Shown: positions 9,788-35,045 of the stretch, in pieces
How the letters are laid out: each line of letters opens with the position of its first letter
Numbering within the stretch: position 1 is the stretch's first letter
DNA from: Candidatus Omnitrophota bacterium
GTDB taxonomy: Bacteria > Omnitrophota > Gorgyraeia > Gygaellales > Profunditerraquicolaceae
Assembly: GCA_041649385.1 (NCBI GenBank)
Contig: JBAZNG010000002.1
Span: 1 to 45,801, forward strand
Direction of reading: 5' to 3'
DNA length: 45,801 nt
The notes under the pieces: model-generated
The model's database searches: none
What the model saw: the letters and a program-made list of their open reading frames with translations, nothing else
Told to the model about the DNA's origin: nothing
Translations under genes and position numbers: made by a program

Positions 9788-11080
<1,293 letters not shown>

Positions 11081-20493: not shown

Positions 20494-20566
20494 AGCCGAT
20501 GAGTGGAATCGAACCACCGACCTTGACTTTACGAAAGTCCTGCTCTACCAACTGAGCTACATCGGC
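20494..20566 (-). tRNA. tRNA-Thr(CGU)
   Basis: The minus strand reads GCCGATGTAGCTCAGTTGGTAGAGCAGGACTTTCGTAAAGTCAAGGTCGGTGGTTCGATTCCACTCATCGGCT. It folds as a cloverleaf with anticodon loop TTCGTAA. Confidence 0.85.
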
Positions 20567-20752
20567 AATCAATAAACTTATTGGTTAAATACCTGCCTGT
20601 TAAATTAAGCAAGCAACCATCGAAAAAAGCCTTCACCCTGCAAGCATAAGCTTCTATCGGCAATTTGCCCAATATTATACCAATTTCCTTAAAATAGTCA
20701 AACGATTAGCTTTTCCTTATAGCAACATCCTGACGCAAGTATCCACTATAAT

Positions 20753-20999
20753 GCGTGGATGGCTTGGCATATTTGGAGCTGGGCTCACTTGGGCCTGAGC
20801 GGGCATGGCCCTGGTAAAGAACTTTGGTTTGGAGCCAGTGGCCCCAAGGCCAAACACAGCAGGCCAGAAGGCCATACCGGCCGGTCATATACGCACGGGT
20901 AATTGCCGCGCTGGAGCAAACAAGCCTGCCTGGCGGCAGTCAGGGCAGGCAGGACAGGCAGGCGTCCCAACAAAAAATATGCCAAGGCATGGCCCACGC
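20753..20999. ncRNA. candidate structured RNA or GC-rich repeat cluster of unknown class
   Basis: A GC-rich block sits in an AT-rich spacer and carries only short overlapping ORFs in four frames. Long-range pairing is visible between CTTGGCATAT (20763-72) and ATATGCCAAG (20977-86), and between GCGTGG (20753-58) and CCACGC (20994-99), with several internal hairpins. On the plus strand a TATAAT box lies at 20747-52. No RNase P, tmRNA or SRP signature motifs were found. Confidence 0.3.
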
Positions 21000-21049
21000 T
21001 AAAAATATAATAAGTAGTTGATATTACACATATTTACCTTAAAAAATAG

Positions 21050-21209: not shown

Positions 21210-21410
21210 ATGGCGAAAGGCAAAGTAAAGTGGTTCAGTAATCAAAAAGGTTACGGCTTTATTACTTCTGAAGATGGCAAAGATGTCTTTGTGCATTTCA
21301 GCGCTGTCAAAGGAGATGGTTATAAATCCTTAGCAGAAGGTGATGAAGTAGAATTTGAAGTCACTCAAGGCCCTAAAGGCGACCAGGCAACTAACGTAAG
21401 CAAAATATAA
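21210..21410 (+). CDS. cold-shock protein (CspA family)
   Basis: 66 aa, [18 protein letters not shown]...VFVHFSA, carrying the RNP1/RNP2 motifs. Confidence 0.95.
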
Positions 21411-21735: not shown

Positions 21736-21752
21736 AAATGCCGAGAGAGGGA
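21736..21752. repeat. att repeat, distal copy (orphan tRNA-Phe 3' fragment)
   Basis: AAATGCCGAGAGAGGGA is identical to 31597-31613. On the minus strand it is followed by the hairpin ATAAGCG...CGCTTAT plus a T10 run, which looks like the original tRNA terminator. Confidence 0.8.
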
Positions 21753-21811
21753 TAAGGTATTTCTTTTTTTATAACTACTAATTATATCAATCATTTATAT
21801 CTCCCACAAGT

Positions 21812-22978
21812 TTATTTTTGAGCCTTTAAAGAGCCCTTATCTTCTGCTTGGCTACCTAAAAAAATTGTTTTCTTATAAATATCCGCCATATAATCCGGCG
21901 CAAGGTGTTTGTATCTTTCAATCATATCTTTCTCTTTCCATCCGCCGATCGCCTGAACCACATCTGAAGGGCAGCCTTTCATAATAGAATGCGCAGTCCA
22001 AGTATGCCTAAAGCTATGCAGCTTGCCGGGCTTGATCCCTGCCTTACTGCACAGTTTCTTTAACTTCTGCCTTATCGCGTCATTAGAAAACGGTTTGCCC
22101 CTTGAATTAACAAACACAAAATCTCCGTCTCCCTGATCATTGCGAATACCCTCACCACCGTCATTGCGAGCCCCGAAGGGGCGAAGCAATCTCAAAATCG
22201 ATACCAACTCCGGATGAATAGGAATCGCCCTTGGCCTATCAGTCTTCGGCTTAAACCCCTCTTTGTGCCGTATAAGTATAATTCCTTTGTCAAAATCAAT
22301 ATCCCCCCTCCTAAGGGACATCAATTCCCTTTTACGCATACCTGTATAATAATAGGTAGCGAATATAACATACCAATTTATCCTTGTTTTCTCACTTCTG
22401 GCTATTTCAAAAATTTTCCGAATCTCCTCTTCAGTAAACCAGCGCTCTTCCTTGTATGGTTCCTGCAATCTCTTAACTTTAGATAAAGGATTATAATTAA
22501 GATAATCTTTTTCCATTAAACGTTTAAATAAATTACTTAACATATCTAATTCAAAATTAATCGTCCTTTCCTTTTTACCTTTAATGTTCTTGCGGTATTC
22601 TTTAAATTCCTCAAAGTGTTTTTGTGCCAATTCATCCATATACTCTAAAGCTAAAAATTTGTCCTTGAGAAATTCTGCGAAATTATTCATAATTTCTTCA
22701 TACCGGGCAACGGTTTTCTTATTACTTAATTCGGTTCTTTTTTGCTCAAGCCACGATTGCACGCCTTGGCTGACAGTAATCCTATAAGAAAATGACTGCC
22801 TCTTAAGGCCAGCGTACATTCTATTAAATTCAGGCAAATTCCTTTTTACTTCATCATACGTTATGCCTAACTTATAATATTCCCTTTTTTGGGTTCGAGG
22901 ATTAGTATAACGGATCTCAAAGAACTTGCCCCGCTTAACCACACTCTTAAGGTTAAATTGCCTTAAACGATAGGTCAT
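21812..22978 (-). CDS. tyrosine recombinase / phage-type integrase
   Basis: 388 aa with GMRKRELMSL (Arg I), HSFRHTWTAH (His-x-x-Arg) and ERYKHL (catalytic Tyr region). It contains an in-frame 33-nt hairpin-repeat insertion that encodes ...RLLRPFGARND.... Confidence 0.9.
   Translation of the reverse strand: MTYRLRQFNLKSVVKRGKFFEIRYTNPRTQKREYYKLGITYDEVKRNLPEFNRMYAGLKRQSFSYRITVSQGVQSWLEQKRTELSNKKTVARYEEIMNNFAEFLKDKFLALEYMDELAQKHFEEFKEYRKNIKGKKERTINFELDMLSNLFKRLMEKDYLNYNPLSKVKRLQEPYKEERWFTEEEIRKIFEIARSEKTRINWYVIFATYYYTGMRKRELMSLRRGDIDFDKGIILIRHKEGFKPKTDRPRAIPIHPELVSILRLLRPFGARNDGGEGIRNDQGDGDFVFVNSRGKPFSNDAIRQKLKKLCSKAGIKPGKLHSFRHTWTAHSIMKGCPSDVVQAIGGWKEKDMIERYKHLAPDYMADIYKKTIFLGSQAEDKGSLKAQK
22160..22192. 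repeat. 33-nt two-tier hairpin element embedded in the integrase ORF
   Basis: The sequence is GTCATTGCGAG-CCCCGAAGGGGC-GAAGCAATCT. The same flanks occur with a compensatory inner stem (GCGCGAAGCGCC) at 31388-31420 in the opposite orientation. Confidence 0.85.
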
Positions 22979-23154
22979 ATTAATTTAATACTGCTTGCCT
23001 CTCCGCTCTCCCATTTCTCAAGCTCATCCGCCTTAAAACGTAAACCGCCTCTTTTAAGGTATGGTATTAAATTCTTTGAAGTCCACTGGTAAAGCGTATT
23101 CTTTTTAATACTATACCTCTGGCAAACTTCTTCTGGTGTTAACAATCTATCCAT
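22975..23154 (-). CDS. excisionase-family helix-turn-helix protein
   Basis: Manual translation gives MDRLLTPEEVCQRYSIKKNTLYQWTSKNLIPYLKRGGLRFKADELEKWESGEASSIKLI* (59 aa). This is the typical HTH_17/Xis pattern. Its stop overlaps the integrase start (ATGA). Confidence 0.6.
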   Translation of the reverse strand: MDRLLTPEEVCQRYSIKKNTLYQWTSKNLIPYLKRGGLRFKADELEKWESGEASSIKLI

Positions 23155-23330
23155 GTTTCCACCCCCTTACCTTTAATTAATATTGAATAGCTAATTTCAA
23201 TTTCTTTTTCTTGCCTAATCTTTTCGTGAAACTCCCTTAATTGCCTAATGGTAATGCCTACCGCATTAGCATATTTAGCCTTATCCCACCCCATTAAATA
23301 ATTTCTTTTACAACAGATGTTAATCATCAT
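23139..23330 (-). CDS. hypothetical small protein
   Basis: 63-aa track ORF that overlaps the xis-like start by 16 nt. There is no recognisable motif and the start is uncertain. Confidence 0.3.
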   Translation of the reverse strand: MMINICCKRNYLMGWDKAKYANAVGITIRQLREFHEKIRQEKEIEISYSILIKGKGVETWIDC

Positions 23331-23388
23331 GTCCCCCCTTCCTTATATCGTGTGTAATTACACTTGTAATATCAAAGGGCAAAAAAAT

Positions 23389-23583
23389 TTACCAGTTAAT
23401 TCCTAATGCCTTTATCTCCTGAATCACCCTGTCTTGTTTCGGCACACTCATCCCCAATTCCCACCGCGCAACTGTTGTGGTAGTAGTCATCAACTTCCCA
23501 GCTAATTCCTTCTGAGTAAGATCCTTCTCTTCTCTATATCTCTTAATTGCTCTAGCAAATTTTTGCCTGTCTATCGTCGTCAT
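23389..23583 (-). CDS. XRE-family HTH transcriptional regulator
   Basis: 64 aa with FARAIKRYREEKDLTQKELAGKLMTTTTTVARWELG, the Cro/C1-type HTH. Confidence 0.8.
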   Translation of the reverse strand: MTTIDRQKFARAIKRYREEKDLTQKELAGKLMTTTTTVARWELGMSVPKQDRVIQEIKALGINW

Positions 23584-23709
23584 CTCTTCCCTTTTTTCAG
23601 ATTACTTGTATCCTACCACATGTAATTACATCTGTCAAGTATTATTTTTTTTATAAGTTTTTTAAAAAAATCTAATAATTTTAAAGTGTAGGTATCAGAG
23701 TGGCTAACT

Positions 23710-24159
23710 CTATTTTGATTTCTGCAAGAATAGCACTCTATCAAGTAGTCTATCAATATTACCAATTATTGACTGCAAGGTAAGCTTAATATCGTTCTGA
23801 CCAGTTATTAATTCCTTGGATGTGCTATCCATCTTATTTTCCAAAATCATTGTCTTTGACTTTACATCAGTCACTGATGCATTTAAAGACCAACAAAACC
23901 AAAGAACAGCAGCTAAAAGTGGTCCCCAAATTAAGAAATGTTTTAACCACCTAGGCATTTCCCATGCCTTAATATCGGAGGGCGGTATAATAACATTACC
24001 CAAAGGAGTATCTGTAGACGTTATTCTTTCCTGATTCTCTTCGCCGTCTACAAGAGCAGATGTTTCTCCAGATTTCGCTCTATCAAAACTATCTAAATAC
24101 TTTTCAGGAGTTCGAGATGGAGCACTAAAAGGGGATTTCTTTCTATTTTTACTACTCAT
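23710..24159 (-). CDS. hypothetical single-pass membrane protein (disordered basic N-terminus, TM helix, C-terminal coiled coil)
   Basis: 149 aa with TM segment FLIWGPLLAAVLWFCWSL. Its start overlaps the stop of the upstream 246-aa ORF by 4 nt. Confidence 0.6.
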   Translation of the reverse strand: MSSKNRKKSPFSAPSRTPEKYLDSFDRAKSGETSALVDGEENQERITSTDTPLGNVIIPPSDIKAWEMPRWLKHFLIWGPLLAAVLWFCWSLNASVTDVKSKTMILENKMDSTSKELITGQNDIKLTLQSIIGNIDRLLDRVLFLQKSK

Positions 24160-24896
24160 AAATTAATCTCCACTCCTTTTGCCTTAAATGCGGGCAAAAC
24201 CACAGTCTGCAAATGATCTATAGCAAATTCATAGTGATCATCAACATCGACTACCTTTTGCATTGGTTCAAAAATCCTCTGAACATCAATACTTACAAAA
24301 AGACATTTATTTTCTTTACCATCTTCATTAATCCCCTTGGATTGATTCAAAATAACAATCACATTGCGATAATCTTTAAGGTCTTTGATAACCAACCCTC
24401 CAGGAATCTGAAGCTTATAGACAAATCGTAAACTTGCTTCGCTTCCCTCTTCTTGCCCATGAAAATCTATGAAATTGTTATAAATAAATTTACCAAAATT
24501 CTCATTAACGATACCATTAAACTCCGGTATACGAAATTCAAATATCATTCCAATTCTGGAATAATCTTTGTCCAGCTCAAATCTCTTACTAACTACGGGA
24601 AGACATCCTTTCATCATATTAATGACTTTTAATTTATTAACCTCGACATAACTTCTTTTTTCCCCGTCAAATAATTTCCTATTCTCCACTATAATATCAT
24701 CAATACTTACTTTTGTTATCAAAGAGTTATCAGTATCGCTTAAGGCAATCTCGTTAACCGTAGGAACTTCTTCAATCTTAACGAAATCTTTTGGGTAAAC
24801 TTTTATTAAATCATCTGCAATTTGACCAGAAAGACTCCGCACCCTAAACACCCGCGTATGGCGTATTCCTATTAAAAAACGAGATAGATGTATCAT
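24156..24896 (-). CDS. hypothetical 246-aa soluble protein
   Basis: Long ORF with an AGGAGG-like Shine-Dalgarno (TAAGGAGGTATGAAATG). I cannot assign a family motif. It is translationally coupled to the 149-aa membrane protein. Confidence 0.65.
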   Translation of the reverse strand: MIHLSRFLIGIRHTRVFRVRSLSGQIADDLIKVYPKDFVKIEEVPTVNEIALSDTDNSLITKVSIDDIIVENRKLFDGEKRSYVEVNKLKVINMMKGCLPVVSKRFELDKDYSRIGMIFEFRIPEFNGIVNENFGKFIYNNFIDFHGQEEGSEASLRFVYKLQIPGGLVIKDLKDYRNVIVILNQSKGINEDGKENKCLFVSIDVQRIFEPMQKVVDVDDHYEFAIDHLQTVVLPAFKAKGVEINL

Positions 24897-25194
24897 TTCA
24901 TACCTCCTTAGAATTTCTTATAACAGCTATTCCTTCCGCTAATAATATCCTTCAAGTGTTTACCTTTAAAATGTCTTTATTTTACGGCTTCACCTCACTA
25001 CATTCAAGTTATTTGTCATCCATTGCTTAATTGACAACGTTAAACGCTTATCATGCTTTAAGCATTTATTTAGTTAGAAATGGTTAACTTAATAGATTGC
25101 TTCTATAAATTTTTTAAAAATAAAAGGGGGCGCTTATATTTTCCAGCTTTAGCATCAAAAAATAGAAACGACCACTTTTTTCCTACCTTAAAGG

Positions 25195-27672
25195 TTAATA
25201 ATTAGATTCCCCATAAACCTTCTTTATTTTACTTGCTATCGCTATCAACGCCTCTTCAGGCATATTTCTTAATTTTTTATTTATTAAATCTAAAGCCTTA
25301 TCTAAAAATCCCTGTTTCGCAAAAAGAACAGCTTCTCTCTTTATTAGGCTATTATAATGATAGGATTTTTCATTAATTTTAGAATCTAAAACATTTATTG
25401 CACTTTGCATCCCTTCGATATCATTAAATGTTTCATATATATCAAATTTCGCTAATTCAAAATAGATTGCATTTGTAAACTTGGCAATACCTTCTTCTAA
25501 TATTTGCAATGCACTTTCTTTTTTATTATTAATAAAAGCTTCAAATTGTGCTCTTAAATAAAAATCGATTTCTTCACCTTTATCTGATTTTATAAGCTTG
25601 GTGCTCCGAAGAAGTTGTTCTAATTTTTTAACTGTTTCGGGTTTCCTCTTTTCATTTTTAATTAAACAGTCAAAAAAAGCTTGTACATGAAAAGGATTAT
25701 CCTTTTCAAGTTGATAATTTTCTTCTGCTAAATCTGTGGCTTTCTCATATTGTGAAGTATGAATATATGCTTGGACTAACTCTCTTTTAGCTGCCCTGTG
25801 TTTCGAATCTATACTTAATACTTTTGTTAAGCGTTCTATCGCCTTAACTCCATTACCAGAAAGCCGGTAATAGAAACCAAACAAAAAATCATGTTGCAAA
25901 CCAGTAACTTTTTGCACTTCACTTAAGAATCGCGGATCTCTTAATCTTGCTAGAGATGCACACAGAAAATATCTTGTTTCTTTTTTAATACAATCATCCA
26001 TGTATCCCTCGTTTACTAAAACCCTATCTGCTAATTTTACAACGTCTTCGTAGCGTTTACGCCTATGGTATAATTCTGCCATCGCTTCCAGAAAATGAGA
26101 TGGAATCAAGAATCTTGGATCAACTGGTTTTCCTGTTAAAATTGCTGTTTTTATAGAAAAAATTAAATCAGCAACGTCTTTATCTTCTGATTGATATTCA
26201 TTCAAAAACTTGTTAACATGGGTTTCTAGTTTTTCCTGATATACTGAAGTAAGATCTTTTTTATTTCTAATTACATAATCCTGTATTGTGTCATTTAATC
26301 TGACATACTCTCTATTAGCACCCAATAACTCACATATCCCAGAAGCAAAGAATTCTGATAATAAATCTCTATAGAACTTATCCTCACCTACTATCTCAAA
26401 AATTAAATCATACCCTATGAAAGGAAAAATTGAGAGTAAATACAAAAAGTCAAGAGCCCTTTTATTGCTTTCATATTTATTTATAACTCTAGCTGCTTTC
26501 TCTGTGTTAAAATCAACTATTAAATAAGTGTTTTTCTTAACGGCAGGCAAACCTATTTCGTTAATCAAATCAACAGTATAAAAAATTTGCTCAGGATATC
26601 CGTTTAGCAAATCCCTGAAATAATTCAAATCTTCCGAAGATAATGGCAGTTTTTCCAATTCAGCATATCTTTTTAATAAGCCTAATCTTTCTGTTATAGA
26701 AAGCTCTGGTACCTCTATTGTAAAAAGATGCTCTAGATTTCTAAAATTATGCTTGAATATTCTAAATTGGGAGACAATCACGAAAGTAATTTGGTTGTCT
26801 TTATTCATCTCGTTTAATATATCTACAAACCAATTGCTTATAATCCTATCAGAAGTCACTATGCATCCATTATCAACAATAAGTAAAATATGTTTAGCTA
26901 TTTGAATATCTTTTATAAGTCGTAAGGATATCTTTACTTTATCTTCCATCTTCTTGTTAATCAGGTTACTTAAATCAATATCTGATGAAAAACCTAAATC
27001 ATATATTTGATAGATAAAATCTTCTATGCTTTCTCTTCTGCCTAGAGCAATTTCTGGCGGTCTGTAAGAAAGGGGGATGACATTAGCTTTTTTTAAACAA
27101 TGTATACATAGCGATCTTCTTCCTATCTGATGGAAACCTGCAGCGATAAAACATACGGGAGAGGGAAGGTCAAGAGAATCAAATCTTTCTTCGAATATTT
27201 TTATCAAATCATTTCTTCCTACAAATATATTCGACTTCTCAAATAATCTAGGATGAAAATCCCAACTTATTTCTCTCAATCGTAACTCAATTCTTCTTAC
27301 TGCTACCTTAGGCTTTCCAGTATATTGTAAATTAAAACTTTCTTCCCTCATCCATAATGGAATTCTTTTATCTAGGTAATTAATTGAAGGATCAATAATT
27401 ATAGGATAAATCCTCTTTAAAAAACCGCTATTTGCTAATTTTTTTGCTCTCTCTAATTCAATTTTTACCCATTCTGAATCTAAAGCATCGCTAGAGAGGA
27501 AAACCACAAACAGATCTGTTTTCTCCAATCCTTTGTCAATTTCTTCTATATTTTTCATTCCTTCTTCAAACGTAAATTTGTCATATACGCATCTATTCTT
27601 ACCAAGAATTTTGGCTATTTCACTAACATAATTTTTATCTTTACTACTATGTGCTAAATAAGCTATTGGCAT
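25195..27672 (-). CDS. TIR-domain protein with a central degenerate P-loop (STAND-like) region and C-terminal TPR-like repeats
   Basis: 825 aa. The N-terminus AYLAHSSKDKNYV...DLFVVFLSSDALDSEWVKIELERA matches the bacterial TIR pattern. The central region has GFHQIGRRS (a Walker A-like motif with Arg in place of Lys) and LLIVDN. The C-terminal ~300 aa are helical and repeat-like. Confidence 0.75.
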   Translation of the reverse strand: MPIAYLAHSSKDKNYVSEIAKILGKNRCVYDKFTFEEGMKNIEEIDKGLEKTDLFVVFLSSDALDSEWVKIELERAKKLANSGFLKRIYPIIIDPSINYLDKRIPLWMREESFNLQYTGKPKVAVRRIELRLREISWDFHPRLFEKSNIFVGRNDLIKIFEERFDSLDLPSPVCFIAAGFHQIGRRSLCIHCLKKANVIPLSYRPPEIALGRRESIEDFIYQIYDLGFSSDIDLSNLINKKMEDKVKISLRLIKDIQIAKHILLIVDNGCIVTSDRIISNWFVDILNEMNKDNQITFVIVSQFRIFKHNFRNLEHLFTIEVPELSITERLGLLKRYAELEKLPLSSEDLNYFRDLLNGYPEQIFYTVDLINEIGLPAVKKNTYLIVDFNTEKAARVINKYESNKRALDFLYLLSIFPFIGYDLIFEIVGEDKFYRDLLSEFFASGICELLGANREYVRLNDTIQDYVIRNKKDLTSVYQEKLETHVNKFLNEYQSEDKDVADLIFSIKTAILTGKPVDPRFLIPSHFLEAMAELYHRRKRYEDVVKLADRVLVNEGYMDDCIKKETRYFLCASLARLRDPRFLSEVQKVTGLQHDFLFGFYYRLSGNGVKAIERLTKVLSIDSKHRAAKRELVQAYIHTSQYEKATDLAEENYQLEKDNPFHVQAFFDCLIKNEKRKPETVKKLEQLLRSTKLIKSDKGEEIDFYLRAQFEAFINNKKESALQILEEGIAKFTNAIYFELAKFDIYETFNDIEGMQSAINVLDSKINEKSYHYNSLIKREAVLFAKQGFLDKALDLINKKLRNMPEEALIAIASKIKKVYGESNY

Positions 27673-27720
27673 ATTGCACTTCCCCTCTTTAGTGAGCTAG
27701 CTATTAAAAAAAACTTCTAT

Positions 27721-28101
27721 TCATTTTCTTAGTTTTCTGTAATGAGTATACTTATGTATCTTACCCTTTACTATGCGAACCGGATATTTCCTTGCTGTTT
27801 TATCTAACTTCCTGACAATGCTTTCCTCTATATTAATGTTAAATAAATTGCAGAAATCTAAAACGTAAATTGCTATATCAGCAAGTTCGTCTTCTATCTC
27901 TACCCGCTTCTTCTTATCTCTTAGGAGTTTTCTTGACTGCTCTATGGTAAGCCACTGAAAATGCTCCATAAGTTCTGCGGCTTCTATTGATATGGACATG
28001 CTAATGTTCTTGGGGGAGTGGAACTGTTCCCAGTCTCGCTCTTTGATGAATTGCTTAATGTGGGCTTTAATTTCCTGGAGAGTAACTTCTGACTTTTTCA
28101 T
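27721..28101 (-). CDS. MazG-type all-alpha NTP pyrophosphohydrolase, DCTPP1/YpjD-like
   Basis: 126 aa with ERDWEQFHSPKN...EAAELMEHFQW...EDELADIAIYVLDF...KYP. Confidence 0.75.
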   Translation of the reverse strand: MKKSEVTLQEIKAHIKQFIKERDWEQFHSPKNISMSISIEAAELMEHFQWLTIEQSRKLLRDKKKRVEIEDELADIAIYVLDFCNLFNINIEESIVRKLDKTARKYPVRIVKGKIHKYTHYRKLRK

Positions 28102-28201
28102 AGAGATATTACTCTCCTCTACTGATATAAAGATTTATATAAGATATTAAATATAAAGGGAAATAAAAAACACCAGTAGTAATTAAGGAAGTAGTCAATT
28201 T

Positions 28202-29392
28202 TCAGTAAGAAGATTTTGCAATAGTAACCAATTCTCTATCAAGTTCTCTTTTTGACTTAAATAATATAGTCGTGCCCTTTTTTGTTTTTATAATTTTTTT
28301 GATATTATTAATCTTCGTTTCTTCGGTTTTAATAGTTCTTTTATACACTTGTAAATCTAAAGCGATTTTTTCTGCAAGAGCCTGTGCGAAATTAGGTGGA
28401 ACAGCATTACCAACCATCTTATATCCATCTGCAACATCGGTATATTTAAAAAGAAAGGTGTCCGGAAATGTTTGAATCCTTGCGCATTCCCTTACTGAAA
28501 GCCGCCTATACAAATCTTTTTTGCCTTCTACAAATTCTCTTTTATTTTGTTCAATAAATTTCATCTTTGGCGCTTTCGGATGAATCGGCGCATGCCTACC
28601 ACCAGCTTGTATCGTAAATGATTGTTCGTCCCAACTTCTTACCCTGTTCCTAGACATATAAATTGTTGAGAAACTACCAATCATATATTCATGATTGGGT
28701 ACCTCAAGGCAATCACCATTAGTTTTATTATATTTTAGTGCCGGCTTAGGCTCTTTTAGATCGCCAATTGCATCGCGCAAAGTCAAAAACTTATTGGTGC
28801 CCTCCGGGAACTCAAATGTTTTGCCCATTTTTTTATGGTACCCAACTATAATAACCCTTTCCCTATCCTGCGGAACATTATAATTTTTTGCATTAAGTAA
28901 TTTATAAACTACATTGTAACCAGCAGCTGAAAAATCTTTCAGAATCTTTTGAAAAGCTTCTTTATGTATATTAGCAAGAATACCTGAAACATTTTCAGCC
29001 AAAAAGAATAACGGCTGTTTATCTTTTAGAACTCTTACATAGTCAAAAAATAACTGCCCCCTATGGTCATTAATCCCCCTACAGGCGCCTGCTTCGCTCC
29101 AGCTCTGGCATGGAGGCCCGCCAATTATCCCATCTGCGCTAGGGATATCGGAAGAGGGTATTTCAGTGATACTTCGCTTATCAAGAGGGGTTTTTGGAAA
29201 ATTTAAGGCAAATGTTTCCCAAATAGCTTTATCAAACTCATTTGCCCAACTAACTTCAAACCCGGCTTTCTCAAACCCAAGGTCCAAACCGCCGCATCCA
29301 CTAAAAAGCGATACTATTTTAAACTTCTCTTCATTATTTTCTTGATTTTCTCTATACATTTTGGTAAATCCTTTATTATTTGATGCTGCCAA
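28202..29392 (-). CDS. dcm: DNA (cytosine-5)-methyltransferase
   Basis: 396 aa with motif I LFSGCGG, IV GGPPCQSWS, VI LAENV, VIII QDRERVIIVG and X GNAVPP, plus a lysine-rich C-terminal tail of about 55 aa. The true start may be the internal Met at 29359. Confidence 0.95.
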   Translation of the reverse strand: MAASNNKGFTKMYRENQENNEEKFKIVSLFSGCGGLDLGFEKAGFEVSWANEFDKAIWETFALNFPKTPLDKRSITEIPSSDIPSADGIIGGPPCQSWSEAGACRGINDHRGQLFFDYVRVLKDKQPLFFLAENVSGILANIHKEAFQKILKDFSAAGYNVVYKLLNAKNYNVPQDRERVIIVGYHKKMGKTFEFPEGTNKFLTLRDAIGDLKEPKPALKYNKTNGDCLEVPNHEYMIGSFSTIYMSRNRVRSWDEQSFTIQAGGRHAPIHPKAPKMKFIEQNKREFVEGKKDLYRRLSVRECARIQTFPDTFLFKYTDVADGYKMVGNAVPPNFAQALAEKIALDLQVYKRTIKTEETKINNIKKIIKTKKGTTILFKSKRELDRELVTIAKSSY

Positions 29393-29736
29393 AACCTAAG
29401 CACTTTCCAACCAGTTCTTTTTAATTTTTTATTATTGTCCTTGTCCCTTGCAATAGTTCTTTCAATCTTAGGTATCCAATACGCCCTATTACTCTTTATT
29501 TTTTTCTTTTTTTCATCCCAGCGATAACCATGCCAAAATTCACCATCAATAAAAATAGCTATCTTTTGTTTATTTAAAACTATATCTGGCTTGCCAAGCA
29601 CTATACTTGGCTTCCTACTAAACCTAATACCGCTTCCCCACAACTTATTTTTTAAAACCAATTCGGGAGAAGTATTATTACTTCTAATCCTGGCCATTAA
29701 TTTAGACCGTTGTTTAGAAGTAATAAACTTGTACAT
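29314..29736 (-). CDS. vsr: very short patch repair endonuclease
   Basis: 140 aa with SKLMARIRSNNTSPE...GKPDIVLNKQKIAIFIDGEFWHG...LRFW. Confidence 0.9.
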   Translation of the reverse strand: MYKFITSKQRSKLMARIRSNNTSPELVLKNKLWGSGIRFSRKPSIVLGKPDIVLNKQKIAIFIDGEFWHGYRWDEKKKKIKSNRAYWIPKIERTIARDKDNNKKLKRTGWKVLRFWQHQIIKDLPKCIEKIKKIMKRSLK

Positions 29737-29738
29737 AC

Positions 29739-30587
29739 TTAAAACGATATCCTAAATAACTTAGCAGGAATATACTTAACTGGATTATTAGGGTCCTTCA
29801 CCTCTACATCTTTTATTGATAGGTTCTTATTTTTTATCGATTCGATACTATCTCTATCTTCTTTTGGTAAAGAATTATACTTTTGAGAACTCATTATAGC
29901 ATAAGCTACTAAATTATTAGCTTTGTAATCTTTGGCTAAATAATCAAAAACCTTCATAGGAGATTCAATAGCCCACATCCCCCTTACTCGTAGGCAAGTA
30001 ATCCCAAGGGGGTCAACTTTATTAACCCTCCCAAGTTCTTTAGTTTTAGACAACTCAACGCCTCTAATATCCTTCACCCCAGCGACAATAGTATTTCTAA
30101 CTCTCTCATACACTCCCCTATCAGCAGCATAGCAATCTCCATAAGCAAACCAAATTGATTTAACTTTCCCGCCAACCACGACCCCAACTAAATATATAAT
30201 ATCTTTTTCCGACCATTTCTCGCAATTCTTGCAATGCTTAGTGATCATTGGGCTATCAGCATGCAATTTTGACTTTGGATAAGAACTATTTAAAGCAAGG
30301 GAAGTACCAAAACCTGCCAATTTCTTAACCTCTATAGCATCTCCTTGTTTTATTATAAAATCAGGCGGGTTATTTTGGTTGCCCCTGTAAGAAAAATATT
30401 CGCCATACTTTCTATTTTTCTTTTCAATATCAACCTCTTTAAGGCTATCGCAAAATAAATCTTTGGCATAATATTCTAAAGCATCCCCCATTGCATTAGC
30501 CCTATTGCCCCCCTTATATATGGATTTTAAATCATTATCTTGGTATTTCGCTAAATTATATAAAGCTTTTAAAATATTTGTCTTCAT
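29739..30587 (-). CDS. type II restriction endonuclease candidate (PD-(D/E)xK)
   Basis: 282 aa. NPPDFIIKQGDAIEVKK fits PD...E-x-K. The gene ends 2 nt before vsr and heads the R-vsr-M string. Specificity is unknown. Confidence 0.6.
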   Translation of the reverse strand: MKTNILKALYNLAKYQDNDLKSIYKGGNRANAMGDALEYYAKDLFCDSLKEVDIEKKNRKYGEYFSYRGNQNNPPDFIIKQGDAIEVKKLAGFGTSLALNSSYPKSKLHADSPMITKHCKNCEKWSEKDIIYLVGVVVGGKVKSIWFAYGDCYAADRGVYERVRNTIVAGVKDIRGVELSKTKELGRVNKVDPLGITCLRVRGMWAIESPMKVFDYLAKDYKANNLVAYAIMSSQKYNSLPKEDRDSIESIKNKNLSIKDVEVKDPNNPVKYIPAKLFRISF

Positions 30588-30656
30588 CTTTCTTAATACC
30601 TTTCTAATTATAATAGACGTAGAATCTATTAGTTTCTAACATAATATTTAAAGAAA

Positions 30657-30692
30657 AAACCTCCGCCTTGTGAGCGAAGGTTTTGATTATTT
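30657..30692 (-). terminator. terminator after the winged-helix gene
   Basis: The minus strand reads AAAACCTTCGC-TCACAAG-GCGGAGGTTTTTT (one mismatch in the stem). Confidence 0.5.
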
Positions 30693-30856
30693 TAACGTGG
30701 CAGTTCCCCCTTCAAACAATACCACACCTGATTGTTGATTATTTTTACCATGAAAATCTTTATTCGTCAACTGTTTCCTAATTTTATTCTTGTACTTATT
30801 ATAACGCTAAGAAATATTAAAGCAACACAAATACCTGGCGCATTTTTTCTCTAATC

Positions 30857-31375
30857 TTATATCCGGTATCTCCCACTTTCTACAAGGTCTTTGCGCATTT
30901 GCGTTAGGTAATCAGGTTCAGTTTTCTCGCCAGGCTTATTAAAAGAATTAGTTATAGTTGTATTGTTTATTGTATAGTTAATATGGTGGTGAATATGGCT
31001 GCACCCATCTGCGCGCTCCTGTTCACCTGTTTTAGCAAAATCTGCACCTATCCAGTCAATTAGTGCACTTTTTGCACCTATTGAGCTTGTAGCCATTTTA
31101 AAAAGATAATCAAAGATTTGATAATAATTCTTGCGGCCTTTCTTAACAACCCTGATCAATCCTTTCTTCTTTAGTTTCTCTACGGCGTAAATAACGCCTC
31201 TCCGGGAAAGGTGAGTTTCTTCAGCAAGAGTACTTATGGCAGGATACGCCTCTAATCTCTGCCAATTCCAGTGGCTACATATAGCGACATAAACTCTAAC
31301 TTCAGACAGGGTCATTTCATACCAGACGCCGCTGGCGAATAGAGTATTTAATATTCTAATGTGATCATAAGCCAT
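30857..31375 (-). CDS. winged-helix DNA-binding protein (plasmid/phage replication- or regulator-like)
   Basis: 172 aa with AYPAISTLAEETHLSRRGVIYAVEKLKKKGLIRVVKKGRKNYYQI, a wHTH pattern. Confidence 0.55.
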   Translation of the reverse strand: MAYDHIRILNTLFASGVWYEMTLSEVRVYVAICSHWNWQRLEAYPAISTLAEETHLSRRGVIYAVEKLKKKGLIRVVKKGRKNYYQIFDYLFKMATSSIGAKSALIDWIGADFAKTGEQERADGCSHIHHHINYTINNTTITNSFNKPGEKTEPDYLTQMRKDLVESGRYRI

Positions 31376-31387
31376 AGATCCTCCATA

Positions 31388-31420
31388 AGATTGCTTCGGC
31401 GCTTCGCGCCTCGCAATGAC
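31388..31420. repeat. 33-nt two-tier hairpin element, second copy
   Basis: The sequence is AGATTGCTTC-GGCGCTTCGCGC-CTCGCAATGAC. It is the reverse complement of the 22160-22192 element, with two compensatory base-pair changes in the inner stem. Confidence 0.85.
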
Positions 31421-31561
31421 ACGTTAACAATTCTGCTTGAGCCATTAATGAGCCAATAACTATAAAGAAAATACAAATTCATACAAAAATAACTAATTAA
31501 GTATAAGAAAACAAAAAGGCGTAACTGTATGTTTTCCACACAATTACGCCACAACATAAAC

Positions 31562-31596
31562 AAAAAAGAGGGGTTGCAAAAACCCCTCTTTTTATT
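31562..31596 (-). terminator. stem-loop terminator immediately 3' of tRNA-Phe (island-borne)
   Basis: AAGAGGGGTT-GCAAA-AACCCCTCTT forms a 10-bp stem flanked by A/T runs. Confidence 0.7.
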
Positions 31597-31613
31597 AAAT
31601 GCCGAGAGAGGGA
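31597..31613. repeat. att repeat, tRNA-proximal copy
   Basis: AAATGCCGAGAGAGGGA is identical to 21736-21752. Confidence 0.8.
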
Positions 31614-31671
31614 ATCGGACCCCCCACGCCGGCCTTTTCAGGGCCGCGCTCTACCACTGAGCTATCTCGGC
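31600..31671 (-). tRNA. tRNA-Phe(GAA), with an unusual T-loop
   Basis: The minus strand reads GCCGAGATAGCTCAGTGGTAGAGCGCGGCCCTGAAAAGGCCGGCGTGGGGGGTCCGATTCCCTCTCTCGGCA. The cloverleaf fits and the anticodon loop is CTGAAAA. The T-loop reads TCCGATT, so position 55 is C instead of the near-universal U. Confidence 0.75.
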
Positions 31672-34531: not shown

Positions 34532-35045
34532 CTATCTTCCTTTCCGTAACATCCTCTTTAACAACATATTGTTTCATCGCGCCGAATACGGCTTTGGCTA
34601 TAATTTCTTTGGCGTACGTGCTGGGGCTGCTGACTTCCACTAAAGTTTGATTTGTCTGCTTTGTGCTAAAAAACAAACCTACAGGAGTAGTATCGTCCAT
34701 AGGAGAAGTACCATCCACAGGGGCAGTATCTTTCACGGAAAGGTAAACCGCGATCATTCTTGGAGAAAGCTTTTCCGCGTAAACATAGGCATGATTCTCT
34801 ATCAAAGCTGATTTTACCTTCTCATAACAACTATCCATATCTATGGCGAATACTTCTTTCTTTGCGTTGGGCAGGCCTTCTTCCAGGACCTTAGTGGAAA
34901 TACCCAAAAAACCCCTGCCGGCTTCCTTGACTGTGGCGCAACCTGAAAAAACAAAAAGCAATGCAATAATAATAAGCGATCTTAAATATTTACTTTGCCG
35001 ATGTAAAAAACACCTGGGTAAATTCATTAAGGCCTCCTTATTCAT
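34503..35045 (-). CDS. lipoprotein, unknown function
   Basis: 180 aa with lipobox VFSGC. It overlaps the upstream patatin gene by 8 nt and the downstream MazG-like gene by 29 nt. Confidence 0.65.
   Translation of the reverse strand: MNKEALMNLPRCFLHRQSKYLRSLIIIALLFVFSGCATVKEAGRGFLGISTKVLEEGLPNAKKEVFAIDMDSCYEKVKSALIENHAYVYAEKLSPRMIAVYLSVKDTAPVDGTSPMDDTTPVGLFFSTKQTNQTLVEVSSPSTYAKEIIAKAVFGAMKQYVVKEDVTERKIDAQAENLGK

What the first reader, a model, noticed from the sequence alone, without database searches (positions are those of the whole stretch)
25195..27672. 825-aa TIR / degenerate P-loop / TPR protein: an NLR-like immune architecture with a non-canonical nucleotide-binding site
Residues ~1-135 read as a bacterial TIR domain: HSSKDK start, DLFVVFLSS, and SEWVKIELERA with a conserved Glu in the position typical of TIR domains. 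The middle region has a Walker-A-like GFHQIGRRS, in which the invariant Lys is Arg, and a Walker-B-like LLIVDN (Asn after the Asp). The last ~300 aa are TPR-like helical repeats, the usual sensor part of STAND proteins.

TIR-STAND antiphage proteins are established (Avs-like, bacterial NLR-like, TIR-NLR). A version with both NTPase motifs degenerate may signal without ATP hydrolysis or may need a partner. It is flanked 48 nt upstream by a MazG-type pyrophosphohydrolase and downstream by the unknown gene pair. The functional unit could therefore be larger than one gene.
Basis: partly seen in the sequence, partly recalled or inferred. Interest (0 to 1): 0.75.

Follow-up and report, generated by a model that had tools for sequence, protein, structure and literature searches.

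The report
Known TIR-NLR antiphage gene, new member
The 825-residue protein is a full-length member of the already validated single-gene "TIR-NLR" antiphage family, and its odd nucleotide-binding motif is the norm for that whole family, so the gene is ordinary.

Summary
The ORF is real: 25195..27672, minus strand, 825 aa.

- **Architecture.** TIR (residues 1-139), a STAND-type nucleotide-binding oligomerisation domain (NOD, 140-475) and TPR repeats (476-825). This rests on Pfam, a high-confidence AlphaFold2 model (pLDDT 90) and Foldseek hits to STAND-TPR, RPP1, Apaf-1, CED-4 and NOD2.
- **Not a new variant.** It matches PADLOC's "TIR-NLR" model end to end (E = 8e-173). It is 36% identical over 817 residues to the Klebsiella P4-satellite TIR-NLR shown to defend as a single gene (Rousset 2022). 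That protein's sequence is the one deposited as PDB 9M0N/9UMD.
- **The motif is family-wide.** The validated protein carries the same GxxxxGRRS. Arg replaces the Walker-A Lys in 246 of 251 family members. Walker-B Asp, sensor-1 Arg, GxP and an MHD-like xND are conserved too, so the site is constrained rather than decayed.
- **No larger unit.** No neighbour is conserved across 84 homologous loci. The MazG-like gene travels with Vsr/Dcm restriction-modification modules. The unknown gene pair is an independent two-gene cassette.

The gene is cargo of a 9.9-kb tRNA-Phe integrative island in a Candidatus Omnitrophota genome. Verdict: new member of a known kind, low interest.

The parts
25195..27672 (-). 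TIR-NLR gene, 825 aa, complete (includes the stop codon)
   Evidence: ORF. PADLOC PDLC03015 'TIR-NLR' E = 8e-173, residues 3-820 against model positions 3-821 of 824. PDB 9m0n_A E = 1.6e-159, residues 4-822 against 4-823.
27256..27672 (-). TIR effector domain, residues 1-139
   Evidence: Pfam TIR_2 E = 4.1e-14. Flavodoxin-like beta/alpha pattern in the model. PDB sequence hits to Cat1, AbTIR and other bacterial TIRs.
27457..27459 (-). Codon of Glu72, the presumed TIR catalytic glutamate in SxWVxxE
   Evidence: Glu in 107/107 and 238/238 family members. Coordinates verified.
26248..27255 (-). STAND-type NOD: nucleotide-binding domain, helical domain and winged helix, residues 140-475
   Evidence: Foldseek against PDB: 6mfv STAND-TPR 4.7e-10, RPP1 1.2e-7, Apaf-1, CED-4, NOD2, MalT, Orc1/Cdc6. 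Weak Pfam AAA_16 hits in 8 of 57 family members. HHpred AAA_35 at 99.7% for the validated homologue in Rousset's supplement.
27211..27225 (-). FVGRN motif just upstream of the P-loop, residues 150-154
   Evidence: F150 106/107, G152 107/107, R153 106/107. This is the FVGRE-type motif typical of AAA_16/MalT-like STAND proteins (my own knowledge).
27112..27138 (-). Non-canonical P-loop GFHQIGRRS, residues 179-187; Arg185 occupies the Walker-A Lys position
   Evidence: Lies between strand 174-179 and helix 185-195. G184 251/251; R185 246/251, with K in the other 5. The same motif is present in 82 of the 83 loci that cover it, down to 22% identity.
26869..26886 (-). Walker-B-like LLIVDN, residues 263-268
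   Evidence: Ends strand 263-269. D267 is in all 12 commonest residue-267/268 pairs, 245 sequences, and in 107/107 of alignment A1. The next residue is N 87, D 47, E 36.
26761..26763 (-). Arg304, sensor-1-like arginine after strand 297-301
   Evidence: R 99 / K 8 of 107; R 165 / K 44 of 250.
26593..26601 (-). GYP, a GxP motif like GLPL of NB-ARC, residues 358-360
   Evidence: G358 107/107 and P360 106/107. GxP in 244 of 247.
26290..26301 (-). RLND in the winged helix, at the position of the MHD motif of NLRs, residues 458-461
   Evidence: N460 99/107 and D461 85/107. The equivalence to MHD is my inference from the pattern xRLNDxIRDY against xRMHDLLRDL.
25198..26247 (-). C-terminal TPR / alpha-solenoid, residues 476-825, the presumed sensor
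   Evidence: Pfam TPR_19. TPR families hit in 36 of 57 members. All-helical hairpins in the model. TPR_MalT 528-809 in the validated homologue.
21736..31613 (.). Carrier: 9.9-kb integrative island bounded by an exact 17-nt direct repeat AAATGCCGAGAGAGGGA (21736-21752 and 31597-31613)
   Evidence: Repeat D11, verified. The second copy overlaps the 3' end of tRNA-Phe at 31600-31671. GC is 30-38% against about 47% in the flanks. Integrase at 21812-22978 and a replication-initiator-like HTH protein at 30857-31375.

Best explanation
The gene encodes a member of the TIR-NLR family (DefenseFinder Rst_TIR-NLR, PADLOC TIR-NLR). This is a stand-alone bacterial NLR-like antiphage sensor-effector.

Proposed mechanism:
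1. The C-terminal TPR solenoid recognises a phage-derived trigger, most likely a protein.
2. That releases the central STAND NOD from an autoinhibited state and drives homo-oligomerisation.
3. Oligomerisation brings the N-terminal TIR domains together into active NADase sites around Glu72.
4. Cellular NAD+ is consumed and phage replication is aborted.

The NOD carries a family-specific P-loop, G-x4-G-R-[RKS]-[ST], followed by a single conserved Walker-B Asp. Most likely it binds a nucleotide as a conformational switch without needing hydrolysis.

Shown here: the architecture, the fold, full-length family membership, conservation of the catalytic and nucleotide-site residues, the absence of any conserved partner gene, and carriage on a mobile island beside a restriction-modification system.

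Shown by others for the 36%-identical homologue: single-gene antiphage defence.

Inferred: NADase output, protein trigger, oligomerisation, and nucleotide binding without hydrolysis.
For: - PADLOC TIR-NLR model matched end to end at 575 bits.
- PDB 9m0n/9umd matched over residues 4-822, E = 1.6e-159, 36% identity.
- That chain is identical over residues 4-399 to the pFR90 TIR-NLR of K. pneumoniae SB5442, which gave single-gene defence against many phages (PMC9122126).
- The AlphaFold2 model has pLDDT 90.2.
- Foldseek finds STAND-TPR, the plant TIR-NLR RPP1, Apaf-1, CED-4, NOD2 and MalT.
- The TIR Glu is invariant, and the NOD motifs FVGR, GxxxxGR, Walker-B D, sensor-1 R, GxP and xND are all conserved.
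- 84 homologous loci share no neighbour except integrases, which occur in 11 loci.
- Relatives at 57% and 51% identity have unrelated neighbours.
- The gene lies next to an NgoPII REase / Vsr / Dcm module on an att-flanked tRNA-Phe island.
- The two PDB entries hold 10 chains of this one sequence, a weak hint of homo-oligomers.
Against: - No biochemical or phage data exist for this protein or its uncultured Omnitrophota host.
- NADase activity, the trigger and the oligomeric state have not been shown for the family in any paper I could reach.
- Neither the window protein nor the family profile gives a significant sequence hit to any STAND family in Pfam or PDB over the NOD. The STAND assignment therefore rests on fold, motif layout and weak AAA_16 hits in relatives.
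- Arg at the Walker-A Lys position, and a basic residue where the Mg-binding Ser/Thr usually sits, could mean no nucleotide is bound at all.
- Weak ThsB_TIR similarity leaves open a signalling TIR rather than a depleting one.
Confidence: 0.85

Rival explanations
1. Multi-gene system. TIR-NLR would work together with the upstream MazG-like pyrophosphohydrolase, the downstream unknown pair (246 aa plus a 149-aa membrane protein), or both. The MazG could process a nucleotide signal and the membrane protein could act as effector.
For: Same strand, with only a 48-nt gap to MazG and no predicted terminator between them. All island genes are co-oriented. The 149-aa protein has one predicted transmembrane helix, as many defence effectors do (sequence).
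Against: - None of 84 TIR-NLR loci has a MazG, u246 or u149 homologue within 8 kb.
- None of 80 MazG loci has a TIR-NLR.
- The four closest MazG relatives with context sit directly after vsr/dcm, or after NgoPII REase plus dcm.
- A related Omnitrophota island (L166) has a different gene in the slot after MazG.
- u246 homologues always bring their own overlapping u149-like partner and never a TIR protein.
- The validated homologue defends alone (PMC9122126).
Confidence: 0.04
2. Signalling TIR. On activation the TIR domain makes a cADPR-isomer or ADPR-conjugate messenger, as Thoeris ThsB does, and the messenger activates an effector encoded elsewhere. NAD+ would not be depleted.
For: Pfam ThsB_TIR is hit at E = 3.3e-4 and by 51 of 57 family members at E <= 0.1. 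PADLOC ThsB models are hit at 1e-4 to 1e-3.
Against: No ThsA-like or other effector is conserved next to the gene in 84 loci. The homologue works as one gene in E. coli, far from its source context (PMC9122126). The ThsB similarity covers only the generic TIR core. The best PDB TIR match is Cat1, which is deposited as a filament assembly and which I recall is an NAD+-cleaving TIR.
Confidence: 0.08
3. Pseudo-NTPase. The NOD has lost nucleotide binding altogether and is only a structural oligomerisation scaffold. Activation would be purely by trigger-induced assembly.
For: Lys is replaced by Arg in 246/251 members. The residue after it is R, K or S rather than the Mg-binding S/T. The second Walker-B acid is present in only about a third of members, and is Asn here. 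Degenerate Walker motifs were taken to suggest lack of ATPase activity in KpAvs8 (PMC13581612).
Against: Every position that contacts nucleotide in canonical STAND proteins is under strong constraint. G179 and G184 are invariant or nearly so, R185 is 98%, D267 is conserved, sensor-1 is R or K in 84%, GxP is 99% and xND is conserved. A decayed pocket would drift. Elsewhere, K-to-R Walker-A substitutions typically keep binding and lose hydrolysis (general knowledge, not tested here).
Confidence: 0.2

Closest known systems
TIR-NLR single-gene defence system (Rousset et al. 2022, Cell Host Microbe; DefenseFinder Rst_TIR-NLR; PADLOC PDLC03015; PDB 9M0N/9UMD, deposited as 'Tetratricopeptide repeat protein')
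   Same: Same length (825 against 824 aa) and the same TIR-NOD-TPR order. Alignable end to end at 36% identity. Same P-loop GxxxxGRRS, same Walker-B hhhhD, same TIR SxWVxxE. Carried by a small integrase-bearing mobile element and not linked to any partner gene.
   Different: The host phylum is Candidatus Omnitrophota rather than Enterobacteriaceae. The carrier is a tRNA-Phe island with an RM module, not a P4-like satellite hotspot. Walker B is D-N here against D-D in the Klebsiella protein. No functional data exist for this protein.
Avs / AVAST antiviral STAND proteins (Gao 2020, 2022; Nature 2026, PMC13581612)
   Same: Tripartite logic of N-terminal effector, STAND NOD and C-terminal TPR-like sensor. 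Single-gene pattern-recognition receptors. At least one Avs (KpAvs8) also has degenerate Walker motifs.
   Different: No PADLOC Avs model is hit at E <= 0.01. The NOD alone retrieves only proteins of its own family: 395 clusters, and the top 150 all share the same layout. Avs1-5 are canonical GK[ST] ATPases, to my knowledge, whereas this family is GR[RKS][ST].
Plant TIR-NLRs (RPP1, ROQ1)
   Same: TIR plus a STAND NOD. Foldseek aligns 533 columns with RPP1 at E = 1.2e-7. GxP and MHD-like motifs sit in equivalent places. The expected logic is oligomerisation-induced TIR NADase activity.
   Different: The sensor is TPR rather than LRR. The P-loop is GR.. rather than GKTT, and xND replaces MHD. 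Sequence identity is 12-13%. This is an analogous architecture, not membership.
Archaeal/bacterial STAND-TPR proteins of the MalT / AAA_16 type (PDB 6mfv, MalT 8bob)
   Same: 6mfv is the best structural match for NOD plus TPR (E = 4.7e-10, 726 aligned columns). The FVGR motif precedes the P-loop. Weak AAA_16 hits occur in 8 of 57 family members.
   Different: Those proteins lack a TIR effector and, to my knowledge, have a canonical Walker A.
Other bacterial TIR effectors: Thoeris ThsB, CRISPR-associated Cat1, AbTIR
   Same: TIR core with the catalytic Glu. Cat1 E = 5e-7, AbTIR E = 6e-4, and ThsB models at about 1e-4.
   Different: Those are short TIR proteins activated by, or signalling to, separate components. 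Here the TIR is fused to its own NOD-TPR receptor.

Membership tests
TIR-NLR (Rst_TIR-NLR / PADLOC TIR-NLR) | Full-length match to the family profile | tested here: met
   PDLC03015 E = 8e-173, 575 bits, residues 3-820 against model positions 3-821 of 824.
TIR-NLR (Rst_TIR-NLR / PADLOC TIR-NLR) | End-to-end homology to the experimentally validated founder (K. pneumoniae SB5442 pFR90 protein = PDB 9m0n chain) | tested here: met
   phmmer E = 1.6e-159 over residues 4-822. 296 identities in 817 aligned positions, 36%. The founder equals the PDB chain over residues 4-399.
TIR-NLR (Rst_TIR-NLR / PADLOC TIR-NLR) | N-terminal TIR domain with the catalytic glutamate | tested here: met
   TIR_2 E = 4.1e-14. 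Glu72 is invariant in the family.
TIR-NLR (Rst_TIR-NLR / PADLOC TIR-NLR) | Central STAND-type NOD | tested here: met
   Foldseek hits to STAND-TPR, RPP1, Apaf-1, CED-4, NOD2 and MalT. P-loop, Walker B, sensor 1, GxP and a winged-helix motif occur in the right order on the model's secondary structure. There is no direct Pfam hit for this protein.
TIR-NLR (Rst_TIR-NLR / PADLOC TIR-NLR) | C-terminal TPR repeats | tested here: met
   TPR_19 E = 1.2e-5. Helical hairpins over residues 476-824.
TIR-NLR (Rst_TIR-NLR / PADLOC TIR-NLR) | Family-type P-loop G-x4-G-R-[RKS]-[ST] | tested here: met
   GFHQIGRRS here. Arg in 246 of 251 members, and the founder has GLIGVGRRS.
TIR-NLR (Rst_TIR-NLR / PADLOC TIR-NLR) | Single-gene system with no obligatory partner | tested here: met
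   No conserved neighbour in 84 loci or in closer relatives.
TIR-NLR (Rst_TIR-NLR / PADLOC TIR-NLR) | Confers antiphage defence; TIR-dependent NAD+ cleavage | not testable with these tools
   Needs cloning, phage challenge and NAD+ measurement. Only the Klebsiella homologue has defence data (PMC9122126).
Avs / AVAST types 1-5 | Match to an Avs family profile; canonical Walker A GK[ST] | tested here: not met
   No Avs model among the PADLOC hits at E <= 0.01. The P-loop has Arg.
Thoeris (ThsB + ThsA) | Stand-alone TIR protein with an adjacent ThsA (SIR2 or TM-Macro/SLOG) effector | tested here: not met
   The ThsB models hit only the TIR core, at E about 1e-4. No SIR2, SLOG or Macro protein is among the island genes.
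Plant-type TIR-NB-ARC-LRR | NB-ARC profile match and an LRR sensor | tested here: not met
   No NB-ARC or LRR Pfam hit. The sensor is TPR. The similarity is structural only.
BcTir/Tpr two-gene system (bioRxiv 10.1101/2023.05.26.542521) | 415-aa N-glycosidase-TPR protein plus a separate TIR protein, both required | tested here: not met
   BcTpr has no NOD and is half the length. Here the TIR, NOD and TPR are fused in one protein.

The most novel reading that the evidence does not exclude
The near-invariant Arg-for-Lys P-loop marks this TIR-NLR clade. The motif is G-x4-G-R-[RKS]-[ST], with Arg in 98% of 251 members down to 22-27% identity. The clade would be a natural 'K-to-R' STAND lineage whose NOD is locked into nucleotide binding without hydrolysis, or has been retuned to another phosphate-bearing ligand such as an NAD-derived or phage-made nucleotide. 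If the 9M0N/9UMD work does not already describe this, it would be a natural experiment on whether NLR-type switches need ATP hydrolysis. It is a property of the family, not of this locus.
Probability: 0.25. Interest if true: 0.5.

Novelty: new member of a known kind. Interest (0 to 1): 0.22.

Why it matters
For this locus, little. DefenseFinder or PADLOC would annotate the gene automatically as TIR-NLR.

Three things are useful:
- The family extends to Candidatus Omnitrophota, on a small tRNA-Phe island that stacks it with a type II restriction-modification system.
They are not evidence of a new variant or of a missing partner.
- The signature bears on a general question for NLR-like receptors: whether the switch needs hydrolysis. 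That question is best addressed on the Klebsiella protein, which already has a structure.

Tried and rejected
1. **Literature for the PDB entries.** A full-text search for '9M0N' found only unrelated papers. Searches for TIR-NLR with cryo-EM, Rst_TIR-NLR, TIR-STAND, TIR-TPR and similar terms found no structural or mechanistic paper on this family. The ligand state and oligomer of 9M0N/9UMD remain unknown to me.
2. **Foldseek library.** 9m0n is not among the listed Foldseek hits, and the library's entries stop at releases up to 2026-04-08. No direct structural superposition with it was possible.
3. **Sequence-profile route to STAND.** The family profile against PDB sequences gave only TIR and TPR hits at E <= 10 in the top 60. 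Pfam gave no NOD hit for the window protein and only weak AAA_16 hits in 8 of 57 relatives. The first attempt on 107 sequences exceeded the size limit.
4. **BcTir/Tpr.** Considered as a possible characterised relative and rejected. BcTpr is 415 aa with no NOD.
5. **TIR-II of PMC11350192.** This E. coli single-protein TIR plus TPR system has a TIR active-site mutant that abolishes defence. It is probably the same family, but no sequence or supplement is held, so this is unverified.
6. **Promoter and terminator scan.** Uninformative: 22 promoter-like sites against 21.3 expected.
7. **Phage and plasmid records.** No phage record matches at E <= 1e-5, and only 5 plasmids do.
8. **u246 pattern scan.** A scan of GTDB species genomes found nothing. 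The protein-database search was needed instead.
9. **NCBIfam and PHROGs.** Neither added anything for the TIR-NLR, u246 or u149.
Full report
**1. Observation**

The window has an ATG-to-stop ORF of 825 codons at 25195..27672 on the minus strand.
- HSSKDK at residues 8-13.
- DLFVVFLSS at residues 53-61.
- SEWVKIELERA at residues 66-76.
- GFHQIGRRS at residues 179-187 (27112-27138).
- LLIVDN at residues 263-268 (26869-26886).

Pfam finds TIR_2 over residues 6-95 (E = 4.1e-14) and TPR_19 over 605-648 (E = 1.2e-5). It finds nothing over the middle. The 48-nt spacer to an upstream MazG-like gene is correct. A good ribosome-binding site precedes the ATG.

**2. Fold**

I predicted the structure with AlphaFold2, using an alignment of 107 homologues. 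The result was pLDDT 90.2 and pTM 0.87, with no segment below 50.
- The N-terminus has a TIR-like beta/alpha pattern.
- Residues 174-321 form a five-stranded alpha/beta unit.
  - GFHQIGRRS lies between strand 174-179 and helix 185-195, the P-loop position.
  - LLIVD ends strand 263-269, the Walker-B position.
  - Arg304 follows strand 297-301, the sensor-1 position.
- A helical bundle and a winged helix follow, up to about residue 475.
- The rest is helical hairpins to the C-terminus.

Foldseek against the PDB gives these top hits:
- The STAND-TPR protein 6mfv, 4.7e-10 over 726 columns.
- The plant TIR-NLR RPP1, 1.2e-7.
- SAMD9, Apaf-1, CED-4, NLRPs, NOD2, MalT and Orc1/Cdc6.

**3. It is a known family**

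PADLOC's model PDLC03015, named 'TIR-NLR', matches residues 3-820 against model positions 3-821 of 824 at E = 8e-173.

The PDB sequence file holds an 824-residue chain, 9m0n_A (also in 9umd), deposited as 'Tetratricopeptide repeat protein'. It aligns with residues 4-822 at E = 1.6e-159 and is 36% identical over 817 positions.

Rousset et al. 2022 (PMC9122126) named and validated 'TIR-NLR'. It is a single gene from the hotspot of a P4-like satellite of Klebsiella pneumoniae SB5442 (plasmid pFR90). It protected E. coli against a broad phage panel, including P2-like phages. Their supplementary table prints the first 399 residues of that protein. Residues 4-399 are identical to the 9m0n chain. The window protein is therefore a moderately diverged, full-length homologue of a defence protein that has been validated genetically and solved structurally.

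**4. The 'degenerate' motifs are the family signature**

The validated protein has GLIGVGRRS and IFFLDDGCI at the same positions.

In 107 homologues of 38-82% identity:

| Position | Residues |
|---|---|
| G179, G184, R185 | invariant |
| 186 | R 44, K 34, S 20 |
| 187 | S 50, T 27, A 19 |
| D267 | invariant |
| 268 | N 33, D 25, E 16 |

In 83 genomic loci from many phyla that cover the motif, including relatives at only 22-30% identity, it reads G[IV]GR[RKS][ST] in all but two. Of those two, L057 has Lys and still fits the motif, and L046 reads GMGKKS.

Pooling 251 family proteins gives Arg 246 and Lys 5 at position 185, and Gly 251/251 at position 184.

The other nucleotide-site landmarks of STAND proteins are conserved too:
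- An FVGR motif before the P-loop.
- Sensor-1 Arg304: R 99 and K 8 of 107.
- GxP at 358-360: 244 of 247.
- RLND at 458-461 in the winged helix. This sits where NLRs have MHD; that equivalence is my inference.

A pocket that had lost its function would drift, and this one is under tight constraint. The window protein's D-N Walker B is simply the commonest family state.

The mechanistic idea of switching without hydrolysis remains reasonable for the family as a whole. Degenerate Walker motifs were taken to suggest lack of ATPase activity in KpAvs8 (PMC13581612).

**5. No larger functional unit**

- I fetched 80 homologous loci from species-representative genomes and 4 from metagenomes.
  - None has a homologue of the MazG-like gene, the 246-aa gene or the 149-aa gene within 8 kb.
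  - All-against-all clustering of neighbouring ORFs found only one recurrent family, a P4-type integrase, in 11 loci.
  - Relatives at 57% and 51% identity have entirely different neighbours.
- Conversely, none of 80 loci holding a MazG-like homologue has a TIR-NLR.
  - The closest relatives lie directly downstream of vsr/dcm. They are 81, 77, 66 and 57% identical and come mostly from Omnitrophota MAGs.
  - In one case the MazG gene follows NgoPII REase plus dcm.
  - So the MazG-like gene belongs, if anywhere, with the m5C restriction-modification module.
- In a related Omnitrophota island (L166), the slot after MazG holds a different 319-aa gene before an XRE/excisionase/integrase module. TIR-NLR therefore occupies a variable cargo position.
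- The 246-aa protein has a small family of 27 proteins.
  - In three other contexts it is always followed by an overlapping gene of 153-183 aa.
  - In the two loci with DNA, that partner is homologous to the 149-aa membrane protein (E about 1e-20).
  - A TIR protein is never present.
  - It is an independent two-gene cassette.

**6. Context**

An exact 17-nt direct repeat, AAATGCCGAGAGAGGGA, occurs at 21736-21752 and at 31597-31613. The second copy overlaps the 3' end of tRNA-Phe. The 9.9 kb between the repeats has 30-38% GC against about 47% outside.

All genes in it lie on the minus strand. In order they are:
1. A replication-initiator-like HTH protein.
2. NgoPII-type REase.
3. Vsr.
4. Dcm.
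5. MazG-like.
6. TIR-NLR.
7. The unknown pair.
8. XRE.
9. A tyrosine integrase.

The flanks encode enolase, Rnf, FtsH and MnmA. The enolase is 77-84% identical to those of Candidatus Omnitrophota MAGs. The gene is therefore cargo of a small integrative defence island in an uncultured Omnitrophota bacterium.

**7. Mechanism and rivals**

Best supported: a stand-alone NLR-like receptor.
1. The TPR solenoid senses a phage component.
2. The NOD oligomerises. Its R-type P-loop probably holds a nucleotide as a conformational cofactor.
3. The clustered TIR domains cleave NAD+ through Glu72 and abort infection.

| Step | Status |
|---|---|
| Architecture, conservation, autonomy | Shown here |
| Single-gene defence | Shown by others for the homologue |
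| NADase, trigger, oligomer, nucleotide role | Inferred |

Rivals:
- A multi-gene unit, confidence about 0.04. The neighbourhood data contradict it.
- A Thoeris-like signalling TIR with a remote effector, about 0.08. There is only generic TIR-core similarity, and the single gene works heterologously.
- A pure pseudo-NTPase scaffold, about 0.2. The tight conservation of every pocket residue argues against it.

**8. Family size and distribution**

The NOD alone retrieves 395 clusters (at 50% identity) at E <= 1e-3 from 1.84 billion representatives. The top 150 are mostly proteins of about 820 aa with the NOD at about 140-480; the shorter ones look like fragments or N-terminally shorter forms. 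At least 333 stretches in species-representative genomes encode relatives. These span Proteobacteria, Bacillota, Bacteroidota, Cyanobacteria, Desulfobacterota and others. No record in the phage collection matches, and five plasmids do.

**9. Verdict**

This is a new member of a known, validated and structurally solved defence family. Its apparent anomaly is the family norm, and the proposed extended unit is not supported. Interest is low. The one feature worth a specialist's attention is the invariant Arg P-loop, which belongs to the family and is best studied on the Klebsiella protein.

Noticed in passing
window 21736-21752 and 31597-31613; tRNA-Phe 31600-31671 (-): An exact 17-nt direct repeat, AAATGCCGAGAGAGGGA, bounds a 9.9-kb low-GC island inserted at the 3' end of tRNA-Phe. 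The integrase (21812-22978) is at the distal end and a replication-initiator-like HTH protein (30857-31375) is at the tRNA end. All cargo is on the minus strand.
   Followed up: yes
window 27721-28101 (-); loci L165, L166, L168, L170: The MazG-like pyrophosphohydrolase travels with m5C restriction-modification genes. Its closest relatives (57-81% identity) sit directly after vsr/dcm, and in L168 after NgoPII REase plus dcm. It might clear 5-methyl-dCTP, as human DCTPP1 does (my speculation). It is not linked to TIR-NLR.
   Followed up: partly
window 23710-24896 (-); loci L245 1091-2363, L247 6001-7300: The 246-aa gene and the overlapping 149-aa single-TM gene form a conserved two-gene cassette. 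The family is small (27 proteins) and has no Pfam, NCBIfam, PHROG or PADLOC hit. It occurs in unrelated contexts, once beside a resolvase and once in a region with PLD and Nmad2 genes. Function is unknown; it is a candidate toxin-antitoxin or defence module.
   Followed up: partly
L166 1-9343 (Candidatus Omnitrophota MAG JAPLLZ010000018.1): A related island has vsr, dcm, a 77%-identical MazG, then a 319-aa TM/TPR-like gene where the window has TIR-NLR. An XRE-like gene, an excisionase-like gene and a 37%-identical integrase follow. This looks like a cargo-swapping slot, comparable in logic to the P4 hotspot.
   Followed up: partly
family members P0204, P0218, P0244, P0248, P0252; loci L046, L057: A few family members (5 of 251 proteins, 2 of the 83 loci that cover the motif) have Lys instead of Arg at the P-loop position (GIGKKT, GIGKKS, GIGKRS). 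They still keep a basic residue before the Ser/Thr. This suggests the shifted hydroxyl is as much a family trait as the Arg.
   Followed up: no
window 20700-21000: A GC-rich stretch between tRNA-Thr (20494-20566) and a cold-shock gene (21210-21410) has overlapping ORFs of 60-70 aa on both strands and no Rfam family at gathering score. It could be an unannotated structured RNA or a remnant.
   Followed up: no
window 35038-37071 (-): A 677-aa protein combines a cyclic-nucleotide-binding domain, a ParA/CbiA-like segment and a patatin-like phospholipase domain. The architecture is reminiscent of cyclic-nucleotide-activated phospholipase effectors. It lies outside the island.
   Followed up: no
window 28202-29392 and 29314-29736 (-): The listed Dcm ORF starts at a TTG that overlaps vsr by 79 nt. 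The methylase Pfam match begins at residue 24 and an in-frame Met lies at residue 12, so the true start is probably downstream and the overlap smaller.
   Followed up: no
window 9788-11053 (-) and flanks: The host is a Candidatus Omnitrophota bacterium. Its enolase is 77-84% identical to those of Omnitrophota MAGs. The closest TIR-NLR relatives in genomes are from Omnitrophota and a Clostridia MAG, at 52-53% identity.
   Followed up: yes
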